The notes beneath the pieces are model-generated. The model saw only the letters and a program-made list of their open reading frames with translations. It ran no database searches and had not been told where the DNA came from. A stretch of DNA of 43,553 nucleotides from the sequence record OR992644.1. One strand, 5' to 3'. Of the stretch, positions 2 to 38,717 are shown one piece after another. The stretch's first letter is position 1; each line of letters begins with the position of its first letter. A program made the position numbers and the translations under genes. The DNA is from Escherichia phage EP-B-K_E2.

Positions 2-364
2 ACAAACGGTGAAAATCTTGGTTTCGGTTTCTGTGCCGAAGTTGGGGGGTTTATAAACTGCGAACGGTCGCACGCCCTCGGAAATCAGGTAGCTGGGTTT
101 TACGCGCTTAGCAATGGGAGTATGTGGGCGCACGCGTGTGTATCTAACAACAATATAGGCCACGGCTTCTATGCCCTAAACGGGGGCGTGGTTGAAGGTA
201 ATGGGCTTAGTACCGCAGACGCAGATAGGTCCAACGCCTACAGTAATGGCGGATGGGGTTTTTACGCAGTAAATGGTGGGATAATGCAGGCGTGGAACTC
301 ATATTCAACCAATAATAGTCAGGGCACTTACGGGACCTCAAACGGTGGGATAATGCTTCCATAG
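2..364 (+). CDS. tailspike C-terminal segment (continuation of the CDS starting at 42150, across the circular junction)
   Basis: Frame of 42150 ORF continues through the 55-bp terminal overlap into frame 2 at window start; stop at 362-364; repeated GFYAxNGG beta-helix-like motifs. Confidence 0.65.
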   Translation, partial: TNGENLGFGFCAEVGGFINCERSHALGNQVAGFYALSNGSMWAHACVSNNNIGHGFYALNGGVVEGNGLSTADADRSNAYSNGGWGFYAVNGGIMQAWNSYSTNNSQGTYGTSNGGIMLP

Positions 365-4135: not shown

Positions 4136-6316
4136 TTACTTAGCATAGCGCTTCATCTCCGCACCTTCCGCTACAAGAGGGAACCCCTCTGCCCACTCTG
4201 GTAATTCGCACATCAACCGTTCAAGCTCTGCGACATTGTATTCCGGTAAATCTGGCGTCTCGCAGATAATCTCATCGTGAACATGAAGCACAATTGGGTA
4301 GCCGTTTGCTTCGACGTTAAGCAGGGCATTAGCCAGCAAATCACGGCACAGCGCCTGAGTGCAGTTTTCCACCAGTTTACCGGAGTAGGTATACTGGAAG
4401 CCCCACTGCCTGGTTAACTGGTTTTCGCCCTGGTACTTGATGCGCACGTTAGTAGACACCTTCCCGTCTTCGTCTGTCTCTTTTGATACACTTAAACCAA
4501 CGCCCGGGTAAGACATAACGCGGCCCGACGGCAACGTCATGCGCAACCACCAGCCCGCGACTTTGTTGCCGTTGGTGTCTGTTTCTACGTTACGCGAAAA
4601 CTTAACGCCCCGCGGCCCTGCGGTGAACTCTTTACCTGGGTTGCGGATAGCCGCCATAGCTGCATCTTCAATATCTCGCCAGAAAGCTACTGTTTCCGGG
4701 TGAGACTCGCGCCACATGCGCTTGATAGCGTCACAGGTACGCCACACTTTCTTATCAAGAATATATGATGGTCGGTCATCCTTTTCACCTGGACGTGGTG
4801 GTCGCTTGGCTTCCTGAATACGCGCCCACTCATATCCACGTGCGGTAGCAGCCCAGATGTGGTCGGGGAAAGTCCCATCCATTGTTTTTGCCATATCAAC
4901 CAGGTCAAGGCCAAGGTTCTTGGCGAACTGTACGAATGCGCCGACGCCGCCCGCATAGCCAAGCCCAAGTTCGCAGGCCTTACCAATCTGGCGCAAATCT
5001 TTACGTTCTTTCTTAATGTAATCTGGGTCCATGCCGAACATCTTACCTGCGGTTACGCAGTAAATATCCAGTCCGGCGCGGAACGTATCTAGCGCGGTTT
5101 CTTCGCCTGCCAGCCACGCTAAACCACGGCCTTCGACGTTTGAGTAATCGGCGACGACAAACTTATGCCCCACTTCCGGTATGATGCAGCTACGTACCGT
5201 CGATGCCGTTAGCTTGGCTACATCAAAACGGCGGTGTGCCCGGCCTTTAAGTAACGCTGAAATGCCTTTATCCAATTCATCATCGTGATAGTACCCGCGC
5301 GCCAGGTTCTGCGGCTGGAAGCCTTTACCTGCAAACCGTAACGTACGCTTGGCCCCACCGTACTGGATGCAACCACGGCGTCGGTCGTCAGACGAGCGGC
5401 CCAACAGCAGCGGGTTATATTTCGTTGACGCGGTGGACGCGGCCCCGAGGCGCATTTCGATAATTGTGCGTGCGTCGTCCGGTAAATCATCGTCCGCCAG
5501 CAGGTCGTTAAGCGTCGACTTCTGTGCGTTGTGTATGCGGTGTGCAGGGGAGAGTTCACGAAGAATCGGCAGAAAGTCCTTACCAGTAAGCGAGCCGCCG
5601 TATTTGCGTTGGGCTTCCTCCTGTAACTGCGCTTTGTGTTTCTCCACGGCTTCAATAGCGGCTTCCGCCAGTGCAACGTCAACCTTAAACCCGCGGTCGT
5701 TGATTAACTGGTCCAGTTCCAGTACACGGTCTTCGAACTCAGAGTTACCCCAACGCGGCAGCTTATGGAAGACTTCACGCATCGCAGTGATGTCGCTCAC
5801 GGCGTACTTGATGAACAGCGCCCACTCGTCCGGGTGTGTTTCTGCGGTGTAGCGGCGGATTTTGTAATTCTTCGGTGTCGGTTTAGAGAAACGCTGAATC
5901 AGCGCCTTGCCGCGTTTATCTTTTGCATTGTCAGCAGACACGCCGAGCACTTCACACAGCGCATCAAGTGAACCCGGCAGCGCGTGACGAAACGCCCAAA
6001 TCATCGTATCAATGGTGTTGCTTACGGGAATATCAAAGCCCCAGCAGTGTTTCATGATGGGCCTATCGAAAAGTCCACCGTTGTGCCACACCATCTTAAT
6101 GCGGCTGTTTGGCTTCACCAGACGGCGCAGAGCACGGTGCAAATCTCCTGGCATGTCGCTGCCGTCAGTGCAATCCCATACACGTACTGGCTCGTCGTCA
6201 AAAGAGTATGTACAGATAAGCACTTCGGTTGACGGATGCTCGGCGTAAGCGTAAGAACCGACTTTCTTCAAATCGGCTTCGGAGAATGTTTCAAAGTCTA
6301 AGAACAGGTAACTCAT
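4136..6316 (-). CDS. family A DNA polymerase with 3'-5' exonuclease domain
   Basis: Exo motif LFLDFETFS; pol motif A DYSNVEGR, motif B RQIGKACELGLGYAGG, motif C VLHVHDEI. Confidence 0.85.
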   Translation of the reverse strand: MSYLFLDFETFSEADLKKVGSYAYAEHPSTEVLICTYSFDDEPVRVWDCTDGSDMPGDLHRALRRLVKPNSRIKMVWHNGGLFDRPIMKHCWGFDIPVSNTIDTMIWAFRHALPGSLDALCEVLGVSADNAKDKRGKALIQRFSKPTPKNYKIRRYTAETHPDEWALFIKYAVSDITAMREVFHKLPRWGNSEFEDRVLELDQLINDRGFKVDVALAEAAIEAVEKHKAQLQEEAQRKYGGSLTGKDFLPILRELSPAHRIHNAQKSTLNDLLADDDLPDDARTIIEMRLGAASTASTKYNPLLLGRSSDDRRRGCIQYGGAKRTLRFAGKGFQPQNLARGYYHDDELDKGISALLKGRAHRRFDVAKLTASTVRSCIIPEVGHKFVVADYSNVEGRGLAWLAGEETALDTFRAGLDIYCVTAGKMFGMDPDYIKKERKDLRQIGKACELGLGYAGGVGAFVQFAKNLGLDLVDMAKTMDGTFPDHIWAATARGYEWARIQEAKRPPRPGEKDDRPSYILDKKVWRTCDAIKRMWRESHPETVAFWRDIEDAAMAAIRNPGKEFTAGPRGVKFSRNVETDTNGNKVAGWWLRMTLPSGRVMSYPGVGLSVSKETDEDGKVSTNVRIKYQGENQLTRQWGFQYTYSGKLVENCTQALCRDLLANALLNVEANGYPIVLHVHDEIICETPDLPEYNVAELERLMCELPEWAEGFPLVAEGAEMKRYAK

Positions 6317-31612: not shown

Positions 31613-32025
31613 TGGGCTATTTCGAGGACTTAACAAAAGCGTTCGATGTGCCGCTGGTAGCCTTCGGAACCGCCAACGGCATCAAGGTTGCGCTTGAAAA
31701 CATCGACGCGCCGACGTCAACAGATACGCCGTATCTGGCTAGTTACATGTTGCTGGCGGATACGGAACAGGCGGATTTGTTCTTCACAGAACAACGCTCT
31801 GGTATTTATCAGGTTGACATTAACTACGCATCGGTGAAAGGTAGCGCGCCAATCAATAAAATGGCAGACTTACTTAACACGGCGTTTAAAGCAGGTAAGT
31901 CATTTTCACGTAACGACATCTGCGCCGAGGTTCAATCGGTTAGCCTGGGGCCGCTGATTGTAGAAAACGGATGGGCCAAACGGCCATTGTCAATTAACTT
32001 TATTGCATTCACCAAGAGGCTGTGA
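31609..32025 (+). CDS. putative tail terminator/completion protein
   Basis: Position immediately upstream of major tail protein. Confidence 0.4.
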   Translation: MMGYFEDLTKAFDVPLVAFGTANGIKVALENIDAPTSTDTPYLASYMLLADTEQADLFFTEQRSGIYQVDINYASVKGSAPINKMADLLNTAFKAGKSFSRNDICAEVQSVSLGPLIVENGWAKRPLSINFIAFTKRL

Positions 32026-33194
32026 ATATGGCTACAACTCCTTTTAAGGGCGCGAATACCGCGCAATTCTATGTGGCGGAAACTACCCCGGGCGTAACAC
32101 CTACTAACCCGGTCTGGTCGCCGTTGCGTAACACCGGCGGTGTCCCCGCTGTAACCCGCGATGCGCTGACTTCTAACGAACTGGACGGCAGCCGAGAAAC
32201 CACATCCATTCGCACCGGTAACAAACAGGTAAGCGGGGAGTATGCCATCGAACTTAGCTCACGTAGCCAGGATGATTTCCTTGCGGGTGCTATGACTTCT
32301 ACGTGGCAGGATGGGGTAGAGATTACGGGTGCCAAAATTACGGTCGCCCCAGCAGGTAAAACATTCACCCGCGCTGCCGGTAGCTTCATTACTGACGGTG
32401 TAGAAGTTGGCGACCTGATTGCGTTCACCGACTTAACCGGCGACAACGCAAAACCGTTTATCGTGACCGCGGTTTCTGCTCTTGTAGTTACGGGTTCGGG
32501 CATTCAGCACACGCTGACCGCAGAGACTGTAACCACCAACGCTAAAACTGGCGATAAACTGGAAACCAGCAACACATGTAAGACGTTCTCCATCCTGACA
32601 TGGTTCAAAGGCCAGTGCGGAAACCCGGACGCGTACATGTTGACCAAAGGCGTGGAAATCTCTGGCTTCACCATTGAACAGGCGGTGAACGCAATGGTAA
32701 CTGGCAGCTTCCCGTTCATCGGCCTGAGCCAGGAGATTCTTACCGCACCGCCGTCTGGCTCTAATTTCTCTCAGGTGACGTTCACCGATGAGCCGTTCTC
32801 TTCTGTAGATGTGTCTGTGCTCGACGGTTCTACACCGTTGCGTTGCGACACACTTACCATCACCAACGACAACGGCGCTTCCGCACAGTTTGAACTAGGG
32901 AACAGTAGCGTTGCATTCGTGGAACGTGGCCGCGCGGCTAACACCTTCTCTATCTCCGGCAAGCTGTACGACATGGCGATGATTCAGAAGTTTATCAACG
33001 AACAGCAGGTGGAGATTAACTCTATTCTGGCGGGGGTAAACGGGGCTATGTCTTTCAGTTTGAAACGTGCCGAACTTACGGCGGTTACACCAGAGATTGG
33101 CGGGCCTGAGTCAATCACTCAGTCTATTGAAGGCCAGGCTACGGGCAACCAGTACCAGTCGTCTATTGTTATCCAGCGTATCACCTACGCATAA
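32022..33194 (+). CDS. major tail protein
   Basis: 390 aa, upstream of chaperone and tape measure, followed by strong terminator. Confidence 0.55.
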   Translation: MNMATTPFKGANTAQFYVAETTPGVTPTNPVWSPLRNTGGVPAVTRDALTSNELDGSRETTSIRTGNKQVSGEYAIELSSRSQDDFLAGAMTSTWQDGVEITGAKITVAPAGKTFTRAAGSFITDGVEVGDLIAFTDLTGDNAKPFIVTAVSALVVTGSGIQHTLTAETVTTNAKTGDKLETSNTCKTFSILTWFKGQCGNPDAYMLTKGVEISGFTIEQAVNAMVTGSFPFIGLSQEILTAPPSGSNFSQVTFTDEPFSSVDVSVLDGSTPLRCDTLTITNDNGASAQFELGNSSVAFVERGRAANTFSISGKLYDMAMIQKFINEQQVEINSILAGVNGAMSFSLKRAELTAVTPEIGGPESITQSIEGQATGNQYQSSIVIQRITYA

Positions 33195-33642: not shown

Positions 33643-34773
33643 TCATCCCAGCATCTCCGGTGAAATAGTTAAACGTGCAACCTCGCCATATTCGGCGCTA
33701 TAAGTAATTACATTTGCACTACGGCCCGACATCCACCCTCCGCGGGAAGCATATGCATCTTTCGCCGCCAGGGTTCGGTGCTGCTCGACAATCATGTTAC
33801 GGCTTTCTACGATTTTCTGATGGTGCAGGTGGCCTACGTGGGCGTAGCTGTACTCGCTTTCGCCAAACGCTTTGCGGAACTTAGCTATCATAATTGGTTC
33901 GACCACCTCAAACCGACATTTATGGCCATGTGTAAAGAACAGAGTCGTTTTGCCGTGTTGTACCATCTTGTACACATCCGGCGACGTATCGACGAACACA
34001 CGAGGCTCATTGTCGTACAGCGTACTGAACATCTCAGCCAGCCAAATCATTCCGCTTTCGTCGTGGTTCCCTTGCACTATAAGCAAACGAACATTTCTAT
34101 GCTTAACAAGTGCCATATCTACAACACGGCGTACCATACGAATCATGTAGCGGACCAGTTTCTGATAGCGCGTGTCAGCGTCAAGGACATGACCACTAGT
34201 TGGCGTAACGGCATCCAGGCTATCGAAGTGCGCGAAGTCGCCTAGCAGGTTAATAACTCCAGTTCCTGCATCCGGTGCTTTCTGAAACGCCGCGTCGAAC
34301 CAGCGGGAGAACAGGTCTTCCGCAATCTTCATGTCCCAGTCGTCGCCGCTCTCGTCGGCCCAGGCCAGCATACCGAGATGAAAATCAGATACCGTGTAAA
34401 GATTGAGTAGCTTGTCGTCGCGTTTGGCGCGTGCTGCTTTAACAGGGGCGACTGGCGTAATCTCTGATTTCATTCCTTCGATTACGGCTTTCATCAACTC
34501 GACCTGACGTTCGGCATCGGTGTCTGTCTTAACCCATTGCAACTTAGTGTTGCCGAACTCGTCCACCAGTGACGACGTTCCTTTAATCTTGTAGCCGTCT
34601 GGTACTAGATGGCTAACGTCACGCCCGTGGCCTACGCCTTTTTTCGCCAGCTTCGCTTTACGGATACGAATAACGCGGTCTGAGATGCCGTATTTACGGG
34701 CGATATCTATATTCTTCATCCCGGCGTTCAATTCTTCCTGTAACTGTTCGTCGGTTATTTTCTTCTGGGCCAT
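33643..34773 (-). CDS. HTH domain fused to calcineurin-like metallophosphoesterase
   Basis: N-terminal HTH IDIARKYGISDRVIRIRKAKL; motifs SDFHLG, GDFAHFD, VQGNHDE, THGH, VGHLHH; start set to ATG with SD gaggaag. Confidence 0.7.
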   Translation of the reverse strand: MAQKKITDEQLQEELNAGMKNIDIARKYGISDRVIRIRKAKLAKKGVGHGRDVSHLVPDGYKIKGTSSLVDEFGNTKLQWVKTDTDAERQVELMKAVIEGMKSEITPVAPVKAARAKRDDKLLNLYTVSDFHLGMLAWADESGDDWDMKIAEDLFSRWFDAAFQKAPDAGTGVINLLGDFAHFDSLDAVTPTSGHVLDADTRYQKLVRYMIRMVRRVVDMALVKHRNVRLLIVQGNHDESGMIWLAEMFSTLYDNEPRVFVDTSPDVYKMVQHGKTTLFFTHGHKCRFEVVEPIMIAKFRKAFGESEYSYAHVGHLHHQKIVESRNMIVEQHRTLAAKDAYASRGGWMSGRSANVITYSAEYGEVARLTISPEMLG

Positions 34774-34811
34774 GCTTACTTCCTCGTGTTTAGGATTTGT
34801 CTTATAGTAGC

Positions 34812-35003
34812 CTACTTCTCTTTCACGTTCGAGTTGCAAGCCCAGATTAAAATAAATACCCACGGCAGCAGAACCCAGCCAAGAAACAGATTAGCCATGA
34901 ATATCGCCAACTTCGCTTTATGGTTACGGAAGTACGCAACCAGGAAAGGCGCGAAATAAGCGAGCAGTGCAAACAGAATTAAGGAAACTGGTAAACTGGA
35001 CAT
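34812..35003 (-). CDS. small membrane protein (alternative start 35018)
   Basis: Two hydrophobic helices; SD aagggg 6 nt before second ATG; directly downstream of promoter 35034-35062. Confidence 0.5.
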   Translation of the reverse strand: MSSLPVSLILFALLAYFAPFLVAYFRNHKAKLAIFMANLFLGWVLLPWVFILIWACNSNVKEK

Positions 35004-35033
35004 TTTAAACCCCTTCATTGTTGGTGTAAGTGA

Positions 35034-35062
35034 ATAGTACCCTATTATATTGGGGTACGCAA
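35034..35062 (-). promoter_or_regulatory. sigma70-like promoter TTGCGT-N17-TACTAT with dyad (minus strand)
   Basis: Near-identical to 12844-12872 and 25844-25872 elements. Confidence 0.6.
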
Positions 35063-35169
35063 GTAATGTGATAGAATAATTTTGCGCCTAGTGTCGCACA
35101 CGAAAAGCGGGTGGTTCCCGTCTGGCGCATTTCCCTTAACCTGTAACCTCTTAACCAAAGGATTAAAGA

Positions 35170-35586
35170 ATGAAACTTTCTGATTTTTATTTCGAAGAGA
35201 AAGCACTGGTAGGCAAGAAGATGCCGATTCTCCTGCCAAATGGTGAAGACTCAGGGGAATGGCTTAATGTTGTAAATCCGGATGCGGATGCCGCCGTTAA
35301 AGCGGGGCGTGCTTTCATTATCGCGTACCGTCGCGGACTGGCGCGTTTCGAAGAACTGGAAAAAACCGCTAAAGCCTCCGGCGACTATACAGAATACAAC
35401 CTGGCGGTTAACGAACTGGCGGAAGACCTCAACCGGCAACTTGCGGCAGAAGTCGTAAACGGCTGGAGCTTTGACGAGCCTTTCTCTAAGGAAGCGTTTA
35501 ACAAGTTGCTCGACCAGTTCAAGGCATTAGGCACACAGGTAGCCGCGTTCCATAACGCTGAGCGCAAAGCATTACAGGAAAAGTAG
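35170..35586 (+). CDS. tail assembly chaperone (G-like)
   Basis: 138 aa immediately upstream of tape measure with overlapping downstream frame. Confidence 0.6.
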   Translation: MKLSDFYFEEKALVGKKMPILLPNGEDSGEWLNVVNPDADAAVKAGRAFIIAYRRGLARFEELEKTAKASGDYTEYNLAVNELAEDLNRQLAAEVVNGWSFDEPFSKEAFNKLLDQFKALGTQVAAFHNAERKALQEK

Positions 35587-35618
35587 ACGCGCTGTACAGG
35601 TTCGCCACCTACGAGTTT

Positions 35619-35951
35619 GTGGATAAGCATAAAATCAGAGAGTTTGATTCTATAGCTGACGGACACGAGCAGGCGCTTATCGCGATGGGTGTAATCGATA
35701 AGAAAAAACGTGCAGCGCGACGGGGTGGGCCGGAATGTCCGCCCCTTTTTATATCCACCTTTGAGACGTATTGCGACATTAAGTTTACGCGACACGTGCG
35801 CGAGGACGCTGTAGTATTGTTTGCAAGAGAATCCGTTACGTGGCAAGACCTGAAAGCCTATCTCGACGTTACGAAAAAACAGCTTAGCCTGTTCGAGATA
35901 GACATTATCATGGGCTTAGAAGCAATCTTTGAAGGTAGAAACCATGGCTGA
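35619..35951 (+). CDS. tail assembly chaperone extension (T-like), probably expressed by -1 frameshift; frame open from 35562
   Basis: No SD before GTG; frame-0 ORF overlaps end of 35170 gene around GGAAAAG at 35577-35583. Confidence 0.45.
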   Translation: MDKHKIREFDSIADGHEQALIAMGVIDKKKRAARRGGPECPPLFISTFETYCDIKFTRHVREDAVVLFARESVTWQDLKAYLDVTKKQLSLFEIDIIMGLEAIFEGRNHG

Positions 35952-38217
35952 TATCGCTAGCTTGATAGTACGAGTATCCGCAACCGGCGTCGATAAAGTC
36001 ACATCACAACTGAACGGGCTTACTAAAGCCGCAGGCGCTGCGGCTGCCGCCGTTGTCAGCCTGGAAACCGCTAAGCAGGTGTTCAGTGCGCTGGTGGACT
36101 CCCAGCGAAACTTCGATAAGCTGAACTCCGGCCTAATCACAATGACCGGGAGTGCTGAGAACGCGGCTAAGGCTTTCAGCGTCCTGCAACAGTTCGCAAA
36201 AGAAACCCCGTATGGCCTCAATCAGGCGGTCGAGGGCTTCACTAAACTTGTAGCTCTTGGTCTTAACCCCAGCAAAGAGGCGTTAATCTCCTACGGCAAC
36301 ACCGCCGCTGCGATGGGCAAAGACCTTAATCAGATGATTGAGGCTGTGGCGGACGCCAGTACATTTGAGTTTGAGCGACTGAAAGAGTTTGGTATCAAGT
36401 CGTCACAGCAGGCGGATACAGTGTCGTTCACGTTCCGCGGTGTTACCACCACGGTTAAGAAGAACTCCGAAGAGATTCAGAAATACCTTCTGAATATTGG
36501 TAACACTGATTTCGCCGGAGCGATGGAAACGCGTTCGAAAACCCTTGACGGGCAGTTATCCAGCCTCGCGGACTCCTTTGACGGCCTTGTACTTGCGGTG
36601 GCGCAATCAGGTTTCGGCGACGCCGTAGGTGAGCAAGCTGCGAGGGCGGAAGATGCTATCACGGCGCTTACTGATGCCATCGCGTCTAATGAGATAGCAG
36701 CCACGCTCCAGGATTGGGTAACACTGTTCAATGAATCGTTCAAGTTTATCTCTGATGCCTTGAACGACCTGGCATACGATACCGAGGACAAATCCGTGGA
36801 TATGTCCGACTCGCTGGGGGGTATACCGGACGCTATCCGTGAGTGGTTGCCCGACATTCAGCAGACATTCCACGAGGTTATTGCGTGGTTCCAGCGCATT
36901 GACGATTATGCCGTAGCGTTAGGCCAGACCCTTGCCGACGTGTTTGACCCGAGCAAAACGGCGGCGCTTACATTTAAAAACCTTACCGCAGAGGCTGATG
37001 CCGCATACGATGCCAGCATAAAACGGGCGGAGGCCGAGTCGCAGGCCATTACCAACAGGTCTAAGCAGCGTAAGAAAGAAATTGAGGAACAACGCAAGCA
37101 GTATGATGAGCGCAAGAAGCAAGAGATTGACTTAGCCAGCCTTGTTAATAAAAAGGGCGGAACTGGTGGAACGGGGGAAACCGACGATAAAGCAGCAAAA
37201 GCCGCCGCCAAGAAAGCAGAGCAATTGCGCAAACAGGCGCAAGATTACCTCGACACTTTGGCCCGTCAGAACAACGACGAGTTAAAAGCTATTGACGCGC
37301 AGGAACAGCAGAAACTGGCTAAAGCGAAAGAGTTCTACAGCCAGGGCGCACTGTCACTGAAAGAATACGAACAAGCTAAAACAGCTATCGTCCTCGAAGC
37401 CGGACAAAAACGGCAAGATGAACTGGATAAACGCCAGAAAGAAGCCCTGGAAAAGCAGCAGAAAGGCGACGACTTCATGGCTCAGATTATGGGCCAGAAC
37501 GCTACTGAGCTTGAGCTTCTCGACATCCAGGAACAGCAGAAACTGGCGGTAGCGGATAAGTACCGCGAGCAGGGTTTGATTAGCGAGAAGCAGTATCAGG
37601 CCGCGCTTAACGCCATCAACGAGCAATACGCCACCAAGCGTGCTGATGCAACGGCAACGGCCTTTGGTAACATGGCCTCAAACATCGGGTCTGCGTTGGG
37701 TGAGGCTTCTGGCGCGTACAAGGCATTCGCTATCGTACAGGCCACCATAGCCACGTACACCGCGGCTATCGAGGCGTACAAGTCCACGGCGGCTATCCCC
37801 ATAGTCGGCCCGTTCCTGGCCCCTGTAGCCGCTGCCGCTGCCGTTGGTGCAGGTATGGCTCAGGTTTCCGCTATCAGGTCAGCACGTGAACAAGGTGGTC
37901 AGTTATCCGCGGGGCAGGCTTCTACTATAGCAGAACGCGGAAAACCAGAAGTTATCATGCCTGCCGGGGCATCGCGTGTGCGCACCGCACAGCAGATGAA
38001 AGAAATTATGGGCCAAAACGGGTCTTCTTCCGGCCCGTCCAATGTTACTATCGTAAACAACACGAGTTCTCAAATCGGCAACGTATCCACCGAGCAAGAT
38101 GATGAAGGCCGTTTGCGTATCATCATCGAGGAGCAAGTGGCAGCCTCTTTGCAGAACAGCAACAGTAAGATTAGCAAGGCCCGCAAGGCCACAAGAAATG
38201 CGCCGGGGTTTAAATAA
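35944..38217 (+). CDS. tail tape measure protein
   Basis: 758 aa, Ala/Gln-rich coiled coil, internal repeats, position. Confidence 0.8.
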   Translation: MADIASLIVRVSATGVDKVTSQLNGLTKAAGAAAAAVVSLETAKQVFSALVDSQRNFDKLNSGLITMTGSAENAAKAFSVLQQFAKETPYGLNQAVEGFTKLVALGLNPSKEALISYGNTAAAMGKDLNQMIEAVADASTFEFERLKEFGIKSSQQADTVSFTFRGVTTTVKKNSEEIQKYLLNIGNTDFAGAMETRSKTLDGQLSSLADSFDGLVLAVAQSGFGDAVGEQAARAEDAITALTDAIASNEIAATLQDWVTLFNESFKFISDALNDLAYDTEDKSVDMSDSLGGIPDAIREWLPDIQQTFHEVIAWFQRIDDYAVALGQTLADVFDPSKTAALTFKNLTAEADAAYDASIKRAEAESQAITNRSKQRKKEIEEQRKQYDERKKQEIDLASLVNKKGGTGGTGETDDKAAKAAAKKAEQLRKQAQDYLDTLARQNNDELKAIDAQEQQKLAKAKEFYSQGALSLKEYEQAKTAIVLEAGQKRQDELDKRQKEALEKQQKGDDFMAQIMGQNATELELLDIQEQQKLAVADKYREQGLISEKQYQAALNAINEQYATKRADATATAFGNMASNIGSALGEASGAYKAFAIVQATIATYTAAIEAYKSTAAIPIVGPFLAPVAAAAAVGAGMAQVSAIRSAREQGGQLSAGQASTIAERGKPEVIMPAGASRVRTAQQMKEIMGQNGSSSGPSNVTIVNNTSSQIGNVSTEQDDEGRLRIIIEEQVAASLQNSNSKISKARKATRNAPGFK
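37300..37547 (+). repeat. in-frame direct repeat inside tape measure gene
   Basis: Exact 20-mer caggaacagcagaaactggc at 37300 and 37528 (228 bp apart); protein repeat IDAQEQQKLA / LDIQEQQKLA. Confidence 0.7.
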
Positions 38218-38717
38218 TGAGCGACTTATATTTCCCACGTAGCCTTAAGCCGGTGGTATCGAAAGGCTACTCAATGACCAGACGCAACAACGTCTGGAGT
38301 GTCGATTTAGCAGGTGGTGGTGTGCGCCAGGGCCGTGACACGTATTACGACGTGTTCCCGATAAGCGTAACCCTGATTACATCGGCACTAGGGCGGCAGG
38401 CGTTTCTGTCGTTCCTTGAGAAAGTCGATGGCGGTGCGTCAAGTTTCTGGATGGCGCACGACTTCGGCATGGGCATCGAGGATTACCAGGTAACAATCAC
38501 GTCCACCATCGCGGAGTCAACCGAAGACGGCATTAACTGGACAATTACCTTCACGGCAACCGCCGAGAAATCACCGTTCCAGGATGAAGATAACCAGTGC
38601 CTTGTTAACAATCTACCAGATTTGTATGGTTGCTATGGCGACGGGCTGGGATGTTTCCTTAAAGCCTACGGAACCGCGCAATCAACGTTTCCACGAATTT
38701 GGGACCCGATGCAATGA
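38217..38717 (+). CDS. minor tail protein (distal tail, lambda M-like position)
   Basis: 166 aa immediately after tape measure. Confidence 0.45.
   Translation: MSDLYFPRSLKPVVSKGYSMTRRNNVWSVDLAGGGVRQGRDTYYDVFPISVTLITSALGRQAFLSFLEKVDGGASSFWMAHDFGMGIEDYQVTITSTIAESTEDGINWTITFTATAEKSPFQDEDNQCLVNNLPDLYGCYGDGLGCFLKAYGTAQSTFPRIWDPMQ

What the first reader, a model, noticed from the sequence alone, without database searches (positions are those of the whole stretch)
35562..35619. Probable programmed -1 frameshift in the tail assembly chaperone
The ORF 35170-35586 (frame 1) is followed by an ORF in frame 0 that is open from 35562 and has no SD before its first possible start (GTG 35619). The 25-nt overlap contains GGAAAAG (35577-35583), where a lysyl-tRNA can slip from AAG to AAA. 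This matches the conserved G/GT chaperone arrangement upstream of tape measure genes. The heptamer is not canonical X-XXY-YYZ, so the exact slip site is uncertain.
Basis: partly seen in the sequence, partly recalled or inferred. Interest (0 to 1): 0.4.

Follow-up and report, generated by a model that had tools for sequence, protein, structure and literature searches.

The report
Tail-chaperone frameshift with long-range RNA helix
This is the usual programmed -1 ribosomal frameshift that phages use to make a short and a long tail-assembly chaperone, already annotated in sister phages, but its signal is unusual: a four-base slip site right before the stop codon, followed by a conserved RNA helix that pairs with sequence more than 100 bases downstream.

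Summary
The window is a Kagunavirus (K1G-like) siphophage. ORF G (35170-35586, 138 aa) is overlapped by a -1 ORF open from 35562 to 35951, which ends inside the tape-measure gene start. RefSeq already annotates it as a joined CDS in phage K1G.

Comparison of 89 related loci (down to 45% aa identity) refines the signal.
- Only A_AAG plus an immediately following stop codon is invariant.
- The preceding codon varies (GAA, GCA, GTA, AAA, GGA), so the conserved unit is a single tRNA-Lys slip (AAG to AAA), not the heptamer.
- The product is ...LQEK|VDALY..., 260 aa.

There is also an apparently undescribed feature. The sequence starting 4-5 nt after AAG (window 35588-35597) pairs with a distal segment. 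In Kaguna- and Jerseyvirus this lies about 120 nt downstream (window 35710-35719). In Cornellvirus-like lineages it lies about 190 nt downstream. All 74 distinct sequences have one of the two helices. Both show compensatory changes and G·U pairs, and RNAalifold predicts this helix alone. It is the likely frameshift stimulator. Nothing is experimentally tested. A terminator-like hairpin (35722-35745) sits just 3' of the helix.

The parts
35158..35162 (+). Shine-Dalgarno-like AAGGA, 7 nt before the G start codon
   Evidence: Read from the sequence.
35170..35586 (+). Gene G: short tail assembly chaperone, 138 aa, zero-frame product
   Evidence: ORF list and translation. Pfam Phage_TAC_4 at 25.3 bits (cut-off 21.1) and phrog_15027 positions 1-138, E 2.7e-71. 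The length is 138 codons in 88 of 89 loci.
35577..35583 (+). Only its last four bases, A_AAG (35580-35583), are conserved; this is the slip site, where tRNA-Lys moves from AAG 35581-35583 to AAA 35580-35582.
   Evidence: Codon 137 is NNA in 65/65 sequences (GAA 45, GCA 13, GTA 4, AAA 2, GGA 1). Codon 138 is AAG in 65/65, while other Lys columns mix AAA and AAG. Across 89 loci: GAA 63, GCA 18, GTA 5, AAA 2, GGA 1.
35584..35586 (+). G stop codon TAG, immediately 3' of the slip codon. It fills three of the 4-5 spacer bases between slip site and helix.
   Evidence: A stop (TAG 62, TAA 26, TGA 1) directly follows AAG in 89/89 loci. The overlapping -1 codon 139 is GTA in 64 and GTG in 1 of 65 sequences.
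35583..35951 (+). The -1 frame extension (T part, 122 aa plus stop). Fused to G after K138 it gives GT, 260 aa: ...ALQEK|VDALYRF...
   Evidence: Translation. Pfam Phage_TAC_18 at 64.1 bits. phrog_15027 positions 139-259, E 5.5e-69. Residues F145, A146, W148 and F150 are conserved with free synonymous variation, upstream of any possible start codon.
35588..35597 (+). 5' arm (CGCGCUGUAC) of the long-range helix. It starts 4 nt after AAG; the invariant core GCGYUG starts at 35589.
   Evidence: Inverted repeat I2 and RNAduplex -20.0 kcal/mol. Ala141 is GCG in 65/65 and Leu142 is CUG 56 / UUG 9, whereas other invariant Ala and Leu columns use 4-6 codons. Covariation; alifold.
35710..35719 (+). 3' arm (GUGCAGCGCG) of the long-range helix, 112 nt downstream of the 5' arm. 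It lies in the poorly conserved linker of the T part (residues R181-R184).
   Evidence: In the 36-sequence type A alignment, 86.4% of cells are paired, against 18-51% when the partner is slid by 1-3 columns. Pair 16:139 is CG in 22 and UA in 14 sequences with no breaks. This is the only helix RNAalifold predicts. It closes the MFE fold of 35584-35725 (-43.2 kcal/mol, z -2.16).
35722..35754 (+). Terminator-like element: a 9-bp GC-rich hairpin (35722-35745) followed by UUUUUAUAU (35746-35754), 2 nt after the 3' arm. It encodes GGPECPPLFI. Whether it belongs to the frameshift signal is uncertain.
   Evidence: Terminator scan. Hairpin energy is -16.5 kcal/mol here and -19 to -21 in other Kagunavirus. 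Similar hairpins with a U tract occur in several other lineages but not in Jerseyvirus or Cornellvirus. Covariation support is moderate only.
35944..38217 (+). Tape measure protein gene (757 aa). Its ATG overlaps the end of the T frame by 8 nt.
   Evidence: phrog_1538 tail length tape measure protein, E 9.8e-195; Pfam TMP_3 at 39 bits, just below its cut-off of 41.

Best explanation
The site is the G/GT tail-assembly-chaperone recoding site of a Kagunavirus.

Most ribosomes translate G (35170-35586) and terminate at TAG 35584, giving the 138-aa chaperone. A minority shift -1 at A_AAG (35580-35583). The single E. coli tRNA-Lys leaves AAG and re-pairs with AAA, the next codon read is GUA (35583-35585), and translation continues to 35951. 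This gives the 260-aa fusion GT (...LQEK-VDALY...). The T domain is inferred to link chaperone-coated tape measure protein to the tail tube protein, as in phage lambda.

The conserved signal has three parts:
1. The tetranucleotide A_AAG. The codon before it need not re-pair.
2. A zero-frame stop codon placed directly after it.
3. An RNA helix whose 5' arm begins 4-5 nt after AAG (35588-35597) and whose 3' arm lies 112 nt further on (35710-35719).

With GAA in the P site and AAG in the A site, the first base pair sits at +11, at the ribosome's mRNA entrance. There it should resist translocation and promote the slip (inferred). The stop in the spacer makes unshifted ribosomes terminate before they run through the structured region, so the helix can persist or re-form. 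It may also give a second chance for a P-site slip while the stop waits for release factor. Both points are inferred.

What is shown: the anatomy, the homology, conservation, synonymous-site constraint and covariation. What is inferred: the frameshift efficiency, the stimulatory role of the helix and the role of the stop.
For: Frames, overlap and absence of a start or SD.

Identity of both halves as tail assembly chaperone, with a contiguous match across the junction.

Prior annotation as a joined CDS in K1G RefSeq (ORF22B), fKuEco01 and Shemara.

The -1 arrangement is conserved in 490 records down to 45% identity.

A_AAG + stop is present in 89/89 loci, while the preceding codon is GAA, GCA, GTA, AAA or GGA and the stop is TAG, TAA or TGA.

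Synonymous sites are saturated elsewhere but frozen at NNA-AAG, GUA, GCG and YUG.

Long-range helix:
- The best duplex partner of the 16 nt after the stop lies at one of two aligned positions in all 74 distinct sequences.
- Type B: 14 bp, 93.8% of cells paired against 21-53% in slid controls, 0/500 shuffles as high.
- Type A (includes the window): 86.4% against 18-51%, with CG/UA, AU/UA and CG/GC exchanges.
- G·U pairs are tolerated, which points to sense-strand RNA rather than DNA.
- RNAalifold predicts only this helix in both alignments.
- Codon-shuffle null: window z -3.1 (p about 0.01); type B z -3 to -6.

Literature: A_AA.G is the most shift-prone tetramer in E. coli. It reaches 5.6% with a pseudoknot 5 nt downstream and is near background without a stimulator (PMC4066793). 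Tetramer sites A_CGA_AAG and G_CGA_AAG are known natural cases (PMC5009743).
Against: - There is no experimental evidence for the fusion protein or for any effect of the helix in this phage group. No paper on it was found.
- Type A helices are only 8-10 bp. In 5 of 10 type A representatives (L004, L028, L029, L068, L069) they are not significantly better than codon-shuffled controls (p 0.06-0.16). In the window, 3.4% of arbitrary 16-mers find an equally good partner.
- When 300 nt or more of downstream context is folded, alternative structures beat the helix in the window by 1.6-3.5 kcal/mol.
- The core GCGCUG:CAGCGC never varies within type B. The number of independent compensatory events is limited and the sequences are related.
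- The 4-5 nt spacer is at the short end of the usual 5-9 nt range.
- From my own knowledge, lambda G/GT frameshifts at about 3-4% without a known structure, so a stimulator is not obligatory for this class.
Confidence: 0.72

Rival explanations
1. Classical tandem slippage on the heptamer G_GAA_AAG. Both the P-site tRNA-Glu (GAA to GGA) and the A-site tRNA-Lys (AAG to AAA) re-pair, with no need for any RNA structure, as in lambda G_GGA_AAG.
For: The heptamer is present at 35577-35583. G_GAA_AAG is the commonest variant, 63 of 89 loci. True canonical heptamers occur in a few relatives: A_AAA_AAG in L074 and L076, G_GGA_AAG in L018. From my own knowledge, lambda works without a known stimulator.
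Against: In 23 of 89 loci the first codon is GCA or GVA-type (GCA 18, GTA 5), preceded by G, C or A, which cannot re-pair in the -1 frame. Yet the arrangement and A_AAG are kept. GAA to GGA re-pairing needs a mismatch at the middle position. This reading does not explain the frozen synonymous sites at GCG and YUG or the conserved complementary distal segment. Tetramers alone are near background in E. coli.
Confidence: 0.12
2. A 'shifty stop' is the main driver. After normal translocation, AAG sits in the P site and the poorly decoded TAG in the empty A site. The pause lets peptidyl-tRNA-Lys slip back to AAA. The long-range helix is irrelevant to recoding.
For: A stop directly follows AAG in 89/89 loci, although its identity changes (TAG, TAA, TGA) and G keeps 138 codons. 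Val139 is GTA or GTG only, which maintains the stop. Stop-stimulated slippage is an established concept ('shifty stops', Weiss 1987, cited in PMC5009743).
Against: This does not explain why the 5' arm of a conserved helix always begins 4-5 nt after AAG while its 3' partner has moved between two places. Known shifty-stop cases are mostly +1. The two mechanisms are not exclusive and give the same protein.
Confidence: 0.2
3. The downstream ORF is a separate gene made by independent initiation or termination-reinitiation (for example at CTG 35592 or GTG 35619), as several GenBank records annotate it.
For: Bas74 and SETP13 annotate a second 'tail assembly chaperone' CDS starting at the Leu142 codon. 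In Jerseyvirus that codon is TTG, and AGGA lies 12 nt upstream. In one lineage (L008) the junction reads A AAG TGA, which contains a GTG that overlaps the stop.
Against: That codon is CTG in 56 of 65 sequences. The AGGA is absent from the GCA and GTA lineages. Codon 151 (GTG here) is GTC, GTA, GTT, ATA or ATC elsewhere. Residues 145-150 upstream of it are conserved as protein with synonymous variation. The -1 phase and the exact junction are kept in 490 records. Fused profiles match contiguously.
Confidence: 0.03
4. The long-range helix is real but serves another purpose. It could protect the rarely translated T region from RNases or Rho, or act together with the adjacent terminator-like hairpin in transcription attenuation that lowers expression of the tape measure and distal tail genes relative to G.
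For: A 9-bp GC-rich hairpin plus U tract lies 2 nt after the 3' arm. The T region is crossed only by shifted ribosomes, so it is largely ribosome-free (inference).
Against: The constant feature is the position of the 5' arm relative to the slip site (4-5 nt), while the 3' arm sits at +121-134 or +192-207. That is what a frameshift stimulator predicts, and a stability or terminator element does not. Jerseyvirus and Cornellvirus keep the helix but lack the terminator-like element.
Confidence: 0.12
5. The shift arises from transcriptional slippage by RNA polymerase on the A run, or is a sequencing or assembly artefact.
For: An A4 run lies at the junction.
Against: Four A's are far shorter than known slippage tracts (own knowledge). 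The same -1 phase occurs in hundreds of independently sequenced genomes. The one single-frame record, SS3e, is explained by indels elsewhere in G, and its junction is unchanged.
Confidence: 0.01

Closest known systems
Phage lambda gpG/gpGT tail assembly chaperone frameshift (conserved across dsDNA tailed phages; Levin 1993, Xu 2004/2013, as summarised in PMC5009743)
   Same: There are two overlapping ORFs directly upstream of the tape measure gene. A -1 slip occurs on ...A_AAG by tRNA-Lys near the end of G. The short product is about 140 aa and the fusion carries a T domain. Neither is expected in virions, and the frameshift efficiency is presumably low.
   Different: Lambda uses a full heptamer (G_GGA_AAG) a few codons before the G stop and has no known RNA stimulator (own knowledge). 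Here only the tetramer is conserved, the stop is immediately adjacent, and a conserved long-range helix follows. The G gene here is separated from the tail tube gene by a divergently transcribed exonuclease / superinfection-immunity module.
Tetranucleotide/hexanucleotide A_AAG sites: IS1222 G_CGA_AAG, Bacillus subtilis cdd A_CGA_AAG, and the IS3-context A_AA.G reporter of Sharma et al. 2014
   Same: A single tRNA-Lys re-pairs from AAG to AAA with a non-re-pairing upstream codon. The slip depends on a 3' structure about 5 nt downstream (5.6% with the IS3 pseudoknot, near background without).
   Different: Those stimulators are local pseudoknots or stem-loops. Here the helix closes a 112-nt loop (about 180 nt in other lineages), and the spacer is a stop codon.
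Phage T7 gene 10A/10B -1 frameshift
   Same: This is a phage structural-gene frameshift whose efficiency depends on sequence more than 200 nt 3' of the shift site (PMC5009743).
   Different: The T7 distal element lies in the transcription terminator and its mode of action is unexplained. No direct pairing with the region next to the slip site is established. The T7 slip site is the heptamer G_GUU_UUC.
Long-distance base pairing in plant RNA virus -1 PRF (BYDV, RCNMV, PEMV RNA2)
   Same: A distal segment pairs with the region just 3' of the slip site and is needed for stimulation.
   Different: In those viruses a local stem-loop bulge kisses a loop kilobases away in a eukaryotic system. Here a plain helix is formed over 0.1-0.2 kb inside the coding sequence of a bacterial virus.
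E. coli dnaX A_AAA_AAG
   Same: The same tRNA-Lys slips from AAG to AAA, with a 3' stem-loop a few nt downstream.
   Different: dnaX has a full heptamer, an upstream SD-like stimulator and a local hairpin, and the shifted frame terminates at once. No conserved upstream SD-like element is present here.

Membership tests
Phage tail assembly chaperone G/GT programmed frameshift (lambda-type) | Two overlapping ORFs immediately upstream of the tape measure gene, the second lacking its own start/SD | tested here: met
   G is 35170-35586; the -1 ORF is 35562-35951; the TMP ATG is at 35944. There is no ATG, GTG or TTG before 35619 and no SD.
Phage tail assembly chaperone G/GT programmed frameshift (lambda-type) | Both halves homologous to tail assembly chaperone families | tested here: met
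   Pfam Phage_TAC_4 (25.3 bits, above cut-off) on residues 63-126 and Phage_TAC_18 (64.1 bits) on 171-255. phrog_15027 matches across the junction.
Phage tail assembly chaperone G/GT programmed frameshift (lambda-type) | Frame relation and slippery site conserved among relatives | tested here: met
   The -1 relation holds in 490 records. A_AAG + stop is present in 89/89 loci.
Phage tail assembly chaperone G/GT programmed frameshift (lambda-type) | Gene lies between the major tail (tube) gene and the tape measure gene | tested here: inconclusive
   The tube gene (32022-33194, Pfam Phage_tube_2) is upstream, but a divergent module on the minus strand (exonuclease 33643-34863, immunity 34812-35018) intervenes.
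Phage tail assembly chaperone G/GT programmed frameshift (lambda-type) | A fusion protein is actually made at a low, fixed ratio to G and is needed for tail assembly | not testable with these tools
   This needs proteomics and genetics. No publication was found for this phage group.
Canonical X_XXY_YYZ heptanucleotide -1 slip sites | Both P- and A-site tRNAs can re-pair in the -1 frame | tested here: not met
   The window has G_GAA_AAG, where GAA to GGA needs a middle-position mismatch. Relatives have N_GCA_AAG or G_GTA_AAG. Only 3 loci have a true heptamer.
Z_ZZN tetranucleotide -1 slip sites (A_AAG class) | A_AAG read by a single tRNA-Lys, with the upstream codon free to vary | tested here: met
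   Codon 138 is AAG in 65/65 and the third base of codon 137 is A in 65/65, with five different codon-137 identities. That the host has a single tRNA-Lys (UUU) is established knowledge.
Z_ZZN tetranucleotide -1 slip sites (A_AAG class) | A 3' RNA structure a few nt downstream is required for useful efficiency | tested here: inconclusive
   A conserved, covarying helix starts 4-5 nt downstream. Its effect on frameshifting was not and cannot be measured here.
Rfam-curated frameshift elements | Match to a curated covariance model | tested here: not met
   cmscan of 35100-36100 at E up to 10 gives only chance-level hits far below gathering scores.

The most novel reading that the evidence does not exclude
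The recoding signal may be a composite device not described for phage chaperone genes. It would consist of a minimal A_AAG slip site, a stop codon used as spacer, and a long-range helix that closes the first 110-180 nt of the T coding region. The 3' arm of that helix has jumped between two positions during evolution, and the Klebsiella VLCpiS11a-like lineage carries both.

In Kagunavirus the helix abuts a strong intrinsic-terminator-like hairpin. Only ribosomes that have shifted frame translate through that hairpin. Frameshifting could therefore be coupled to transcriptional read-through and so set the G : GT : tape-measure stoichiometry from one signal.
Probability: 0.12. Interest if true: 0.7.

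Novelty: new variant of a known kind. Interest (0 to 1): 0.4.

Why it matters
The frameshift itself is routine, and confirming it mainly helps annotation. GenBank records of this phage subfamily are inconsistent: some have a joined CDS, some two 'chaperones', some two hypothetical proteins, and one genome announcement says there is no canonical slippery sequence.

The comparative result gives a simple rule for the whole Guernseyvirinae-like group: shift -1 on A_AAG at the last codon of G.

Of more general interest, it offers a natural, evolutionarily validated case of tetranucleotide -1 frameshifting in an enterobacterial phage whose likely stimulator is a long-range helix. Current predictors scan only 50-100 nt downstream and would miss it. 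It also suggests why a stop codon may be placed inside the spacer. The signal is compact and easy to test in E. coli reporters.

Tried and rejected
1. **Local hairpin or pseudoknot just 3' of the slip site.** Single-sequence MFE folds of 23 lineages and RNAalifold on 26 sequences below 90% identity gave no shared local structure.
2. **Upstream SD-like stimulator.** The AGGA overlapping the site is absent from the GCA and GTA lineages, and nothing is conserved 10-14 nt upstream.
3. **Naturally fused single-frame relative.** SS3e appeared as one tblastn piece, but this is due to indels inside G in an old record; its junction is identical.
4. **Known RNA family.** Rfam gave only chance hits.
5. 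**Same design in more distant chaperones.** Serratia phage Tlacuache has C_CGA_AAG four codons before its stop and no adjacent long-range helix. Pseudomonas phage AAT-1 has no A_AAG at all. The design is therefore clade-specific.
6. **Helix stability in larger folding contexts.** It holds up to 220 nt, but alternative folds out-compete it at 300 nt or more in the window, so thermodynamics alone does not prove it.
7. **Literature.** No paper on the frameshift signal of Kagunavirus or Jerseyvirus, or on long-range stimulators in tail chaperone genes, was found in the searchable library.
Full report
**What the window is.** Megablast of 34900-38300 finds 119 phage records, 92-97% identical, almost all Escherichia phages of the genus Kagunavirus (K1G, K1ind1-3, ZCEC5, EP-M-A). 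The local gene order is as follows:
- tail tube gene 32022-33194 (Pfam Phage_tube_2);
- a divergently transcribed module (DNA repair exonuclease 33643-34863, superinfection immunity 34812-35018);
- the ORF in question, 35170-35586;
- the overlapping -1 ORF, open to 35951;
- the tape measure gene, 35944-38217 (phrog_1538, E 9.8e-195);
- distal tail genes.

**Check of the observation.**
- G ends ...CAG GAA AAG TAG (35575-35586).
- The -1 frame has TGA at 35559-35561 and is open from 35562 to TGA 35949-35951.
- GGAAAAG is at 35577-35583.
- The first conventional start codon in the -1 frame is GTG 35619, with no SD-like sequence before it.
- A slip of tRNA-Lys from AAG (35581-35583) to AAA (35580-35582) makes GUA (35583) the next codon. 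The result is a 260-aa fusion, ...ALQEK|VDALYRF....

**Is it a tail-chaperone frameshift?** Yes, as far as computation can tell.
- The G part matches Pfam Phage_TAC_4 and the -1 part Phage_TAC_18.
- The PHROG family phrog_15027 ('tail assembly chaperone', 259 positions) matches G at 1-138 and the -1 part at 139-259. The database family therefore consists of fusions joined exactly at K138|V139.
- tblastn of the fusion against 50,697 phage records gives 490 records covering at least 80% of the query. The sampled records show the match as two pieces spanning 776-779 nt, which is 259-260 codons minus one base. Identities go down to about 45% and include Jerseyvirus, Cornellvirus, and Serratia and Klebsiella phages.
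- The one apparent single-frame record (SS3e) has indels elsewhere in G and an unchanged junction.
- RefSeq K1G (ORF22A/ORF22B), fKuEco01 and Shemara already annotate a two-piece joined CDS here. Other records list two separate genes or hypothetical proteins. One genome announcement for a related phage states that there is 'no canonical slippery sequence' (PMC6776780).

The finding as given is therefore correct and already known in annotation, though annotation is inconsistent and no experimental paper was found.

**What exactly is the slip site?** I collected the junction from 89 loci: the window, 10 GenBank records and 78 IMG/VR contigs.
- G has 138 codons in 88 of them and always ends NNA AAG followed at once by a stop.
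- The penultimate codon is GAA (63), GCA (18), GTA (5), AAA (2) or GGA (1).
- The stop is TAG (62), TAA (26) or TGA (1).
- In a codon alignment of 65 sequences below 97% identity, invariant Leu, Ala and Gly columns elsewhere use four to six synonymous codons, so synonymous sites are saturated.
- Even so, the third base of codon 137 is A in 65/65, Lys138 is AAG in 65/65 (other Lys columns mix AAA and AAG), and Val139 in the -1 frame is GTA 64 / GTG 1.

The conserved unit is thus A_AAG + stop. GCA and GTA cannot re-pair in the -1 frame, so tandem heptamer slippage is not the conserved mechanism. The site belongs to the Z_ZZN tetramer class. In E. coli, A_AA.G is the most efficient member of that class (PMC4066793), and natural examples are A_CGA_AAG in B. 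subtilis cdd and G_CGA_AAG in IS1222 (PMC5009743). A few relatives have drifted into canonical heptamers: A_AAA_AAG in L074 and L076, and the lambda-type G_GGA_AAG in L018.

**A stimulator.** Sharma et al. found tetramers to be near background without a 3' structure and up to 5.6% with a pseudoknot 5 nt downstream, so I looked for one.

No local hairpin is shared. However, two further codons are frozen at the nucleotide level: Ala141 is GCG in 65/65 and Leu142 is CUG or UUG in 65/65. Searching for partners of the 16 nt that follow the stop gave a 10-14 bp duplex in every one of 26 representatives below 90% identity. In all 74 distinct sequences the best partner lies at one of two aligned positions.

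| | Type A | Type B |
|---|---|---|
| Sequences | 36 | 38 |
| Lineages | Kagunavirus (including the window), Jerseyvirus, several uncultured | Cornellvirus, Serratia Otaku, Klebsiella VLCpiS11a, E. coli Bas73-like |
| Position of 3' arm after the stop | +121 to +134 | +192 to +207 |
| Region encoding the 3' arm | variable linker of T | KF(I/L)QR motif |

In the window the helix is CGCGCUGUAC (35588-35597) with GUGCAGCGCG (35710-35719). It has 10 bp including one G·U, an RNAduplex energy of -20.0 kcal/mol, and 112 nt between the arms.

Examples of compensatory change:
- GCGCUG:CAGCGC (Kagunavirus) against GCGUUG:CAACGC (Jerseyvirus). Here a synonymous Leu change is matched by an Ala-to-Thr change in the linker.
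- UAUGAAUU:AAUUCAUA against UUGAAAU:AUUUCAA (L030) against GCAUAAAUU:AAUUUAUGC (L074). Here the amino acids change on both arms.

Rare codons AUA (Ile) and CUA (Leu) dominate the position that pairs with UAU.

Formal counts:

| | Type B | Type A |
|---|---|---|
| Pairs tested | 14 | 11 |
| Cells paired | 93.8% | 86.4% |
| Cells paired, 3' partner slid 1-3 columns | 21-53% | 18-51% |
| Pairs with changes on both sides | 4 | 5 |
| Shuffles reaching the observed covariation score | 0/500 | 0/500 |

In type A, pair 16:139 is CG in 22 and UA in 14 sequences with no breaks. G·U pairs are frequent, which is compatible with sense-strand RNA but not with a DNA palindrome. RNAalifold, given no hint, predicts this helix and nothing else in both alignments. 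Against codon-shuffled downstream sequence the window helix has z = -3.1 (p about 0.01) and type B helices have z = -3 to -6.

**Caveats on the helix.**
- Type A helices are short. In five of ten type A representatives they are not individually significant.
- 3.4% of arbitrary 16-mers in the window find an equally stable partner.
- The helix closes the MFE fold for contexts up to 220 nt. With 300 nt or more, alternative folds are 1.6-3.5 kcal/mol better in the window.

The case rests on conservation and covariation, not on thermodynamics.

**Mechanism proposed.** With GAA in the P site (+1 = 35578) and AAG in the A site, the first base pair (35588) is at +11. The invariant core starts at +12. 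This is the position of the mRNA entrance, where 3' stimulators are thought to act (the exact numbering is from my own knowledge). The spacer of 4-5 nt equals that of the IS3 construct that gave 5.6% on A_AA.G.

I therefore infer a classical structure-stimulated -1 shift that relies on re-pairing of the single tRNA-Lys.

The stop codon occupies the spacer. I offer two inferences for its strict conservation, neither tested:
- Unshifted ribosomes terminate before they traverse the 110-180 nt closed by the helix. A slow-folding long-range structure is then not erased by every ribosome.
- A ribosome that translocated normally pauses with AAG in the P site and a stop in the A site, which gives a second opportunity to slip.

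Both routes give the same protein. The constant feature across lineages is the distance between slip site and 5' arm, while the 3' arm has relocated. That argues for a role in recoding rather than in mRNA stability.

**Rivals.**
- Independent initiation of T is very unlikely. The annotated 'start' is CTG in most lineages, the GTG at 35619 is not conserved, and residues 145-150 are under protein-level selection upstream of it.
- Transcriptional slippage on A4 and sequencing artefact are excluded by the conservation.
- A pure shifty-stop mechanism and a non-recoding role for the helix cannot be excluded without experiments.

**Comparison with known systems.** Functionally this is a member of the lambda G/GT class. 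It differs from lambda in three ways: a tetramer rather than a heptamer, a stop adjacent to the slip site, and a conserved RNA structure.
- The slip-site class matches IS1222, cdd and IS3.
- A distal requirement recalls T7 gene 10 (more than 200 nt, mechanism unexplained) and the long-distance pairings of BYDV and RCNMV. Those differ in architecture.
- Rfam has no matching family.
- The PRFect predictor inspects only 50 and 100 nt downstream and would not see this helix.
- More distant chaperone genes (Tlacuache, AAT-1) do not share the design.

**Verdict.** The frameshift is ordinary and already annotated in sister genomes. The refined signal (A_AAG + stop + covarying long-range helix with two alternative 3' arms) appears to be undescribed. 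It is a new variant of a known kind, of moderate interest to recoding and phage-annotation specialists. Everything about efficiency and stimulation remains to be measured.

Noticed in passing
window 35722-35754: An intrinsic-terminator-like element lies inside the T coding region, 2 nt after the 3' arm of the long-range helix. It is a 9-bp GC-rich hairpin (GGGGUGGGC-CGGAAU-GUCCGCCCC, -16.5 kcal/mol) followed by UUUUUAUAU, and it encodes GGPECPPLFI. Similar hairpins with a U tract and differing flanking pairs (GAG..CUC, GACG..CGUU, AAAG..CUUU) occur in several other lineages but not in Jerseyvirus or Cornellvirus. Covariation support is only moderate: 68.6% of cells paired, and the slide +3 control scores as high. 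It could attenuate transcription into the tape measure gene, or it could be a by-product of the GPECP motif.
   Followed up: partly
L008, L032, L042-L047 (Klebsiella phage VLCpiS11a-like), +116..125 and +192..207 after the G stop: This lineage carries both possible 3' partners for the post-stop arm: CGCGCAGCGC at the type A-like position and AAUUCAUACAGCGC at the type B position. It may be an intermediate in the relocation of the 3' arm, or a case of alternative pairing.
   Followed up: partly
window 35807-35813: A near copy of the 5' arm (CGCUGUA) lies about 220 nt after the stop. In folds with 300 nt or more of context it competes for the 3' arm at 35713-35719. Whether it is conserved was not examined.
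   Followed up: no
L011 (Salmonella phage SS3e, AY730274.2) 401-1177: This record has at least two frame-breaking indels inside the G gene relative to other Jerseyvirus genomes. G is therefore annotated as fragments, and tblastn sees G and T in one frame. These are probably sequencing errors in an old record.
   Followed up: yes
L004 (OR594180.1, Escherichia phage vB_EcoM_SHAK7693): The GenBank taxonomy line places this phage in Autographiviridae/Kayfunavirus, and its name says 'EcoM'. Its tail chaperone and tape measure region is Jerseyvirus-like siphophage sequence, so the record is probably misclassified.
   Followed up: no
L092 (Serratia phage Tlacuache) about 1714-1720: The distant chaperone homologue has C_CGA_AAG four codons before its stop, with a 122-codon -1 ORF running to the tape measure gene. 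This is the IS1222/cdd-type hexanucleotide. The frameshift is not annotated in the record, where all genes are 'hypothetical'.
   Followed up: partly
L002 (Bas74, PQ850627.1) 4818-6218 versus window 38217-38717: In Bas74 the gene after the tape measure is annotated as 1401 nt, whereas the window and K1G have a 501-nt gene there. This looks like an insertion or fusion in the distal tail module of an otherwise 92% identical phage.
   Followed up: no
window 35050-35078: A possible extended -10 promoter (TGATAGAAT, with a weak -35 TTGGGG) for the chaperone/tape-measure operon lies in the divergent intergenic region. It is below the threshold of the consensus scan, which found promoter-like sites only on the minus strand there.
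   Followed up: no
L012 (IMGVR_UViG_3300045988_017057, 43552 bp): This IMG/VR contig has almost exactly the window's length (43553 bp) and 98% identity in the chaperone. It may be the same phage as the window or a very close relative.
   Followed up: no
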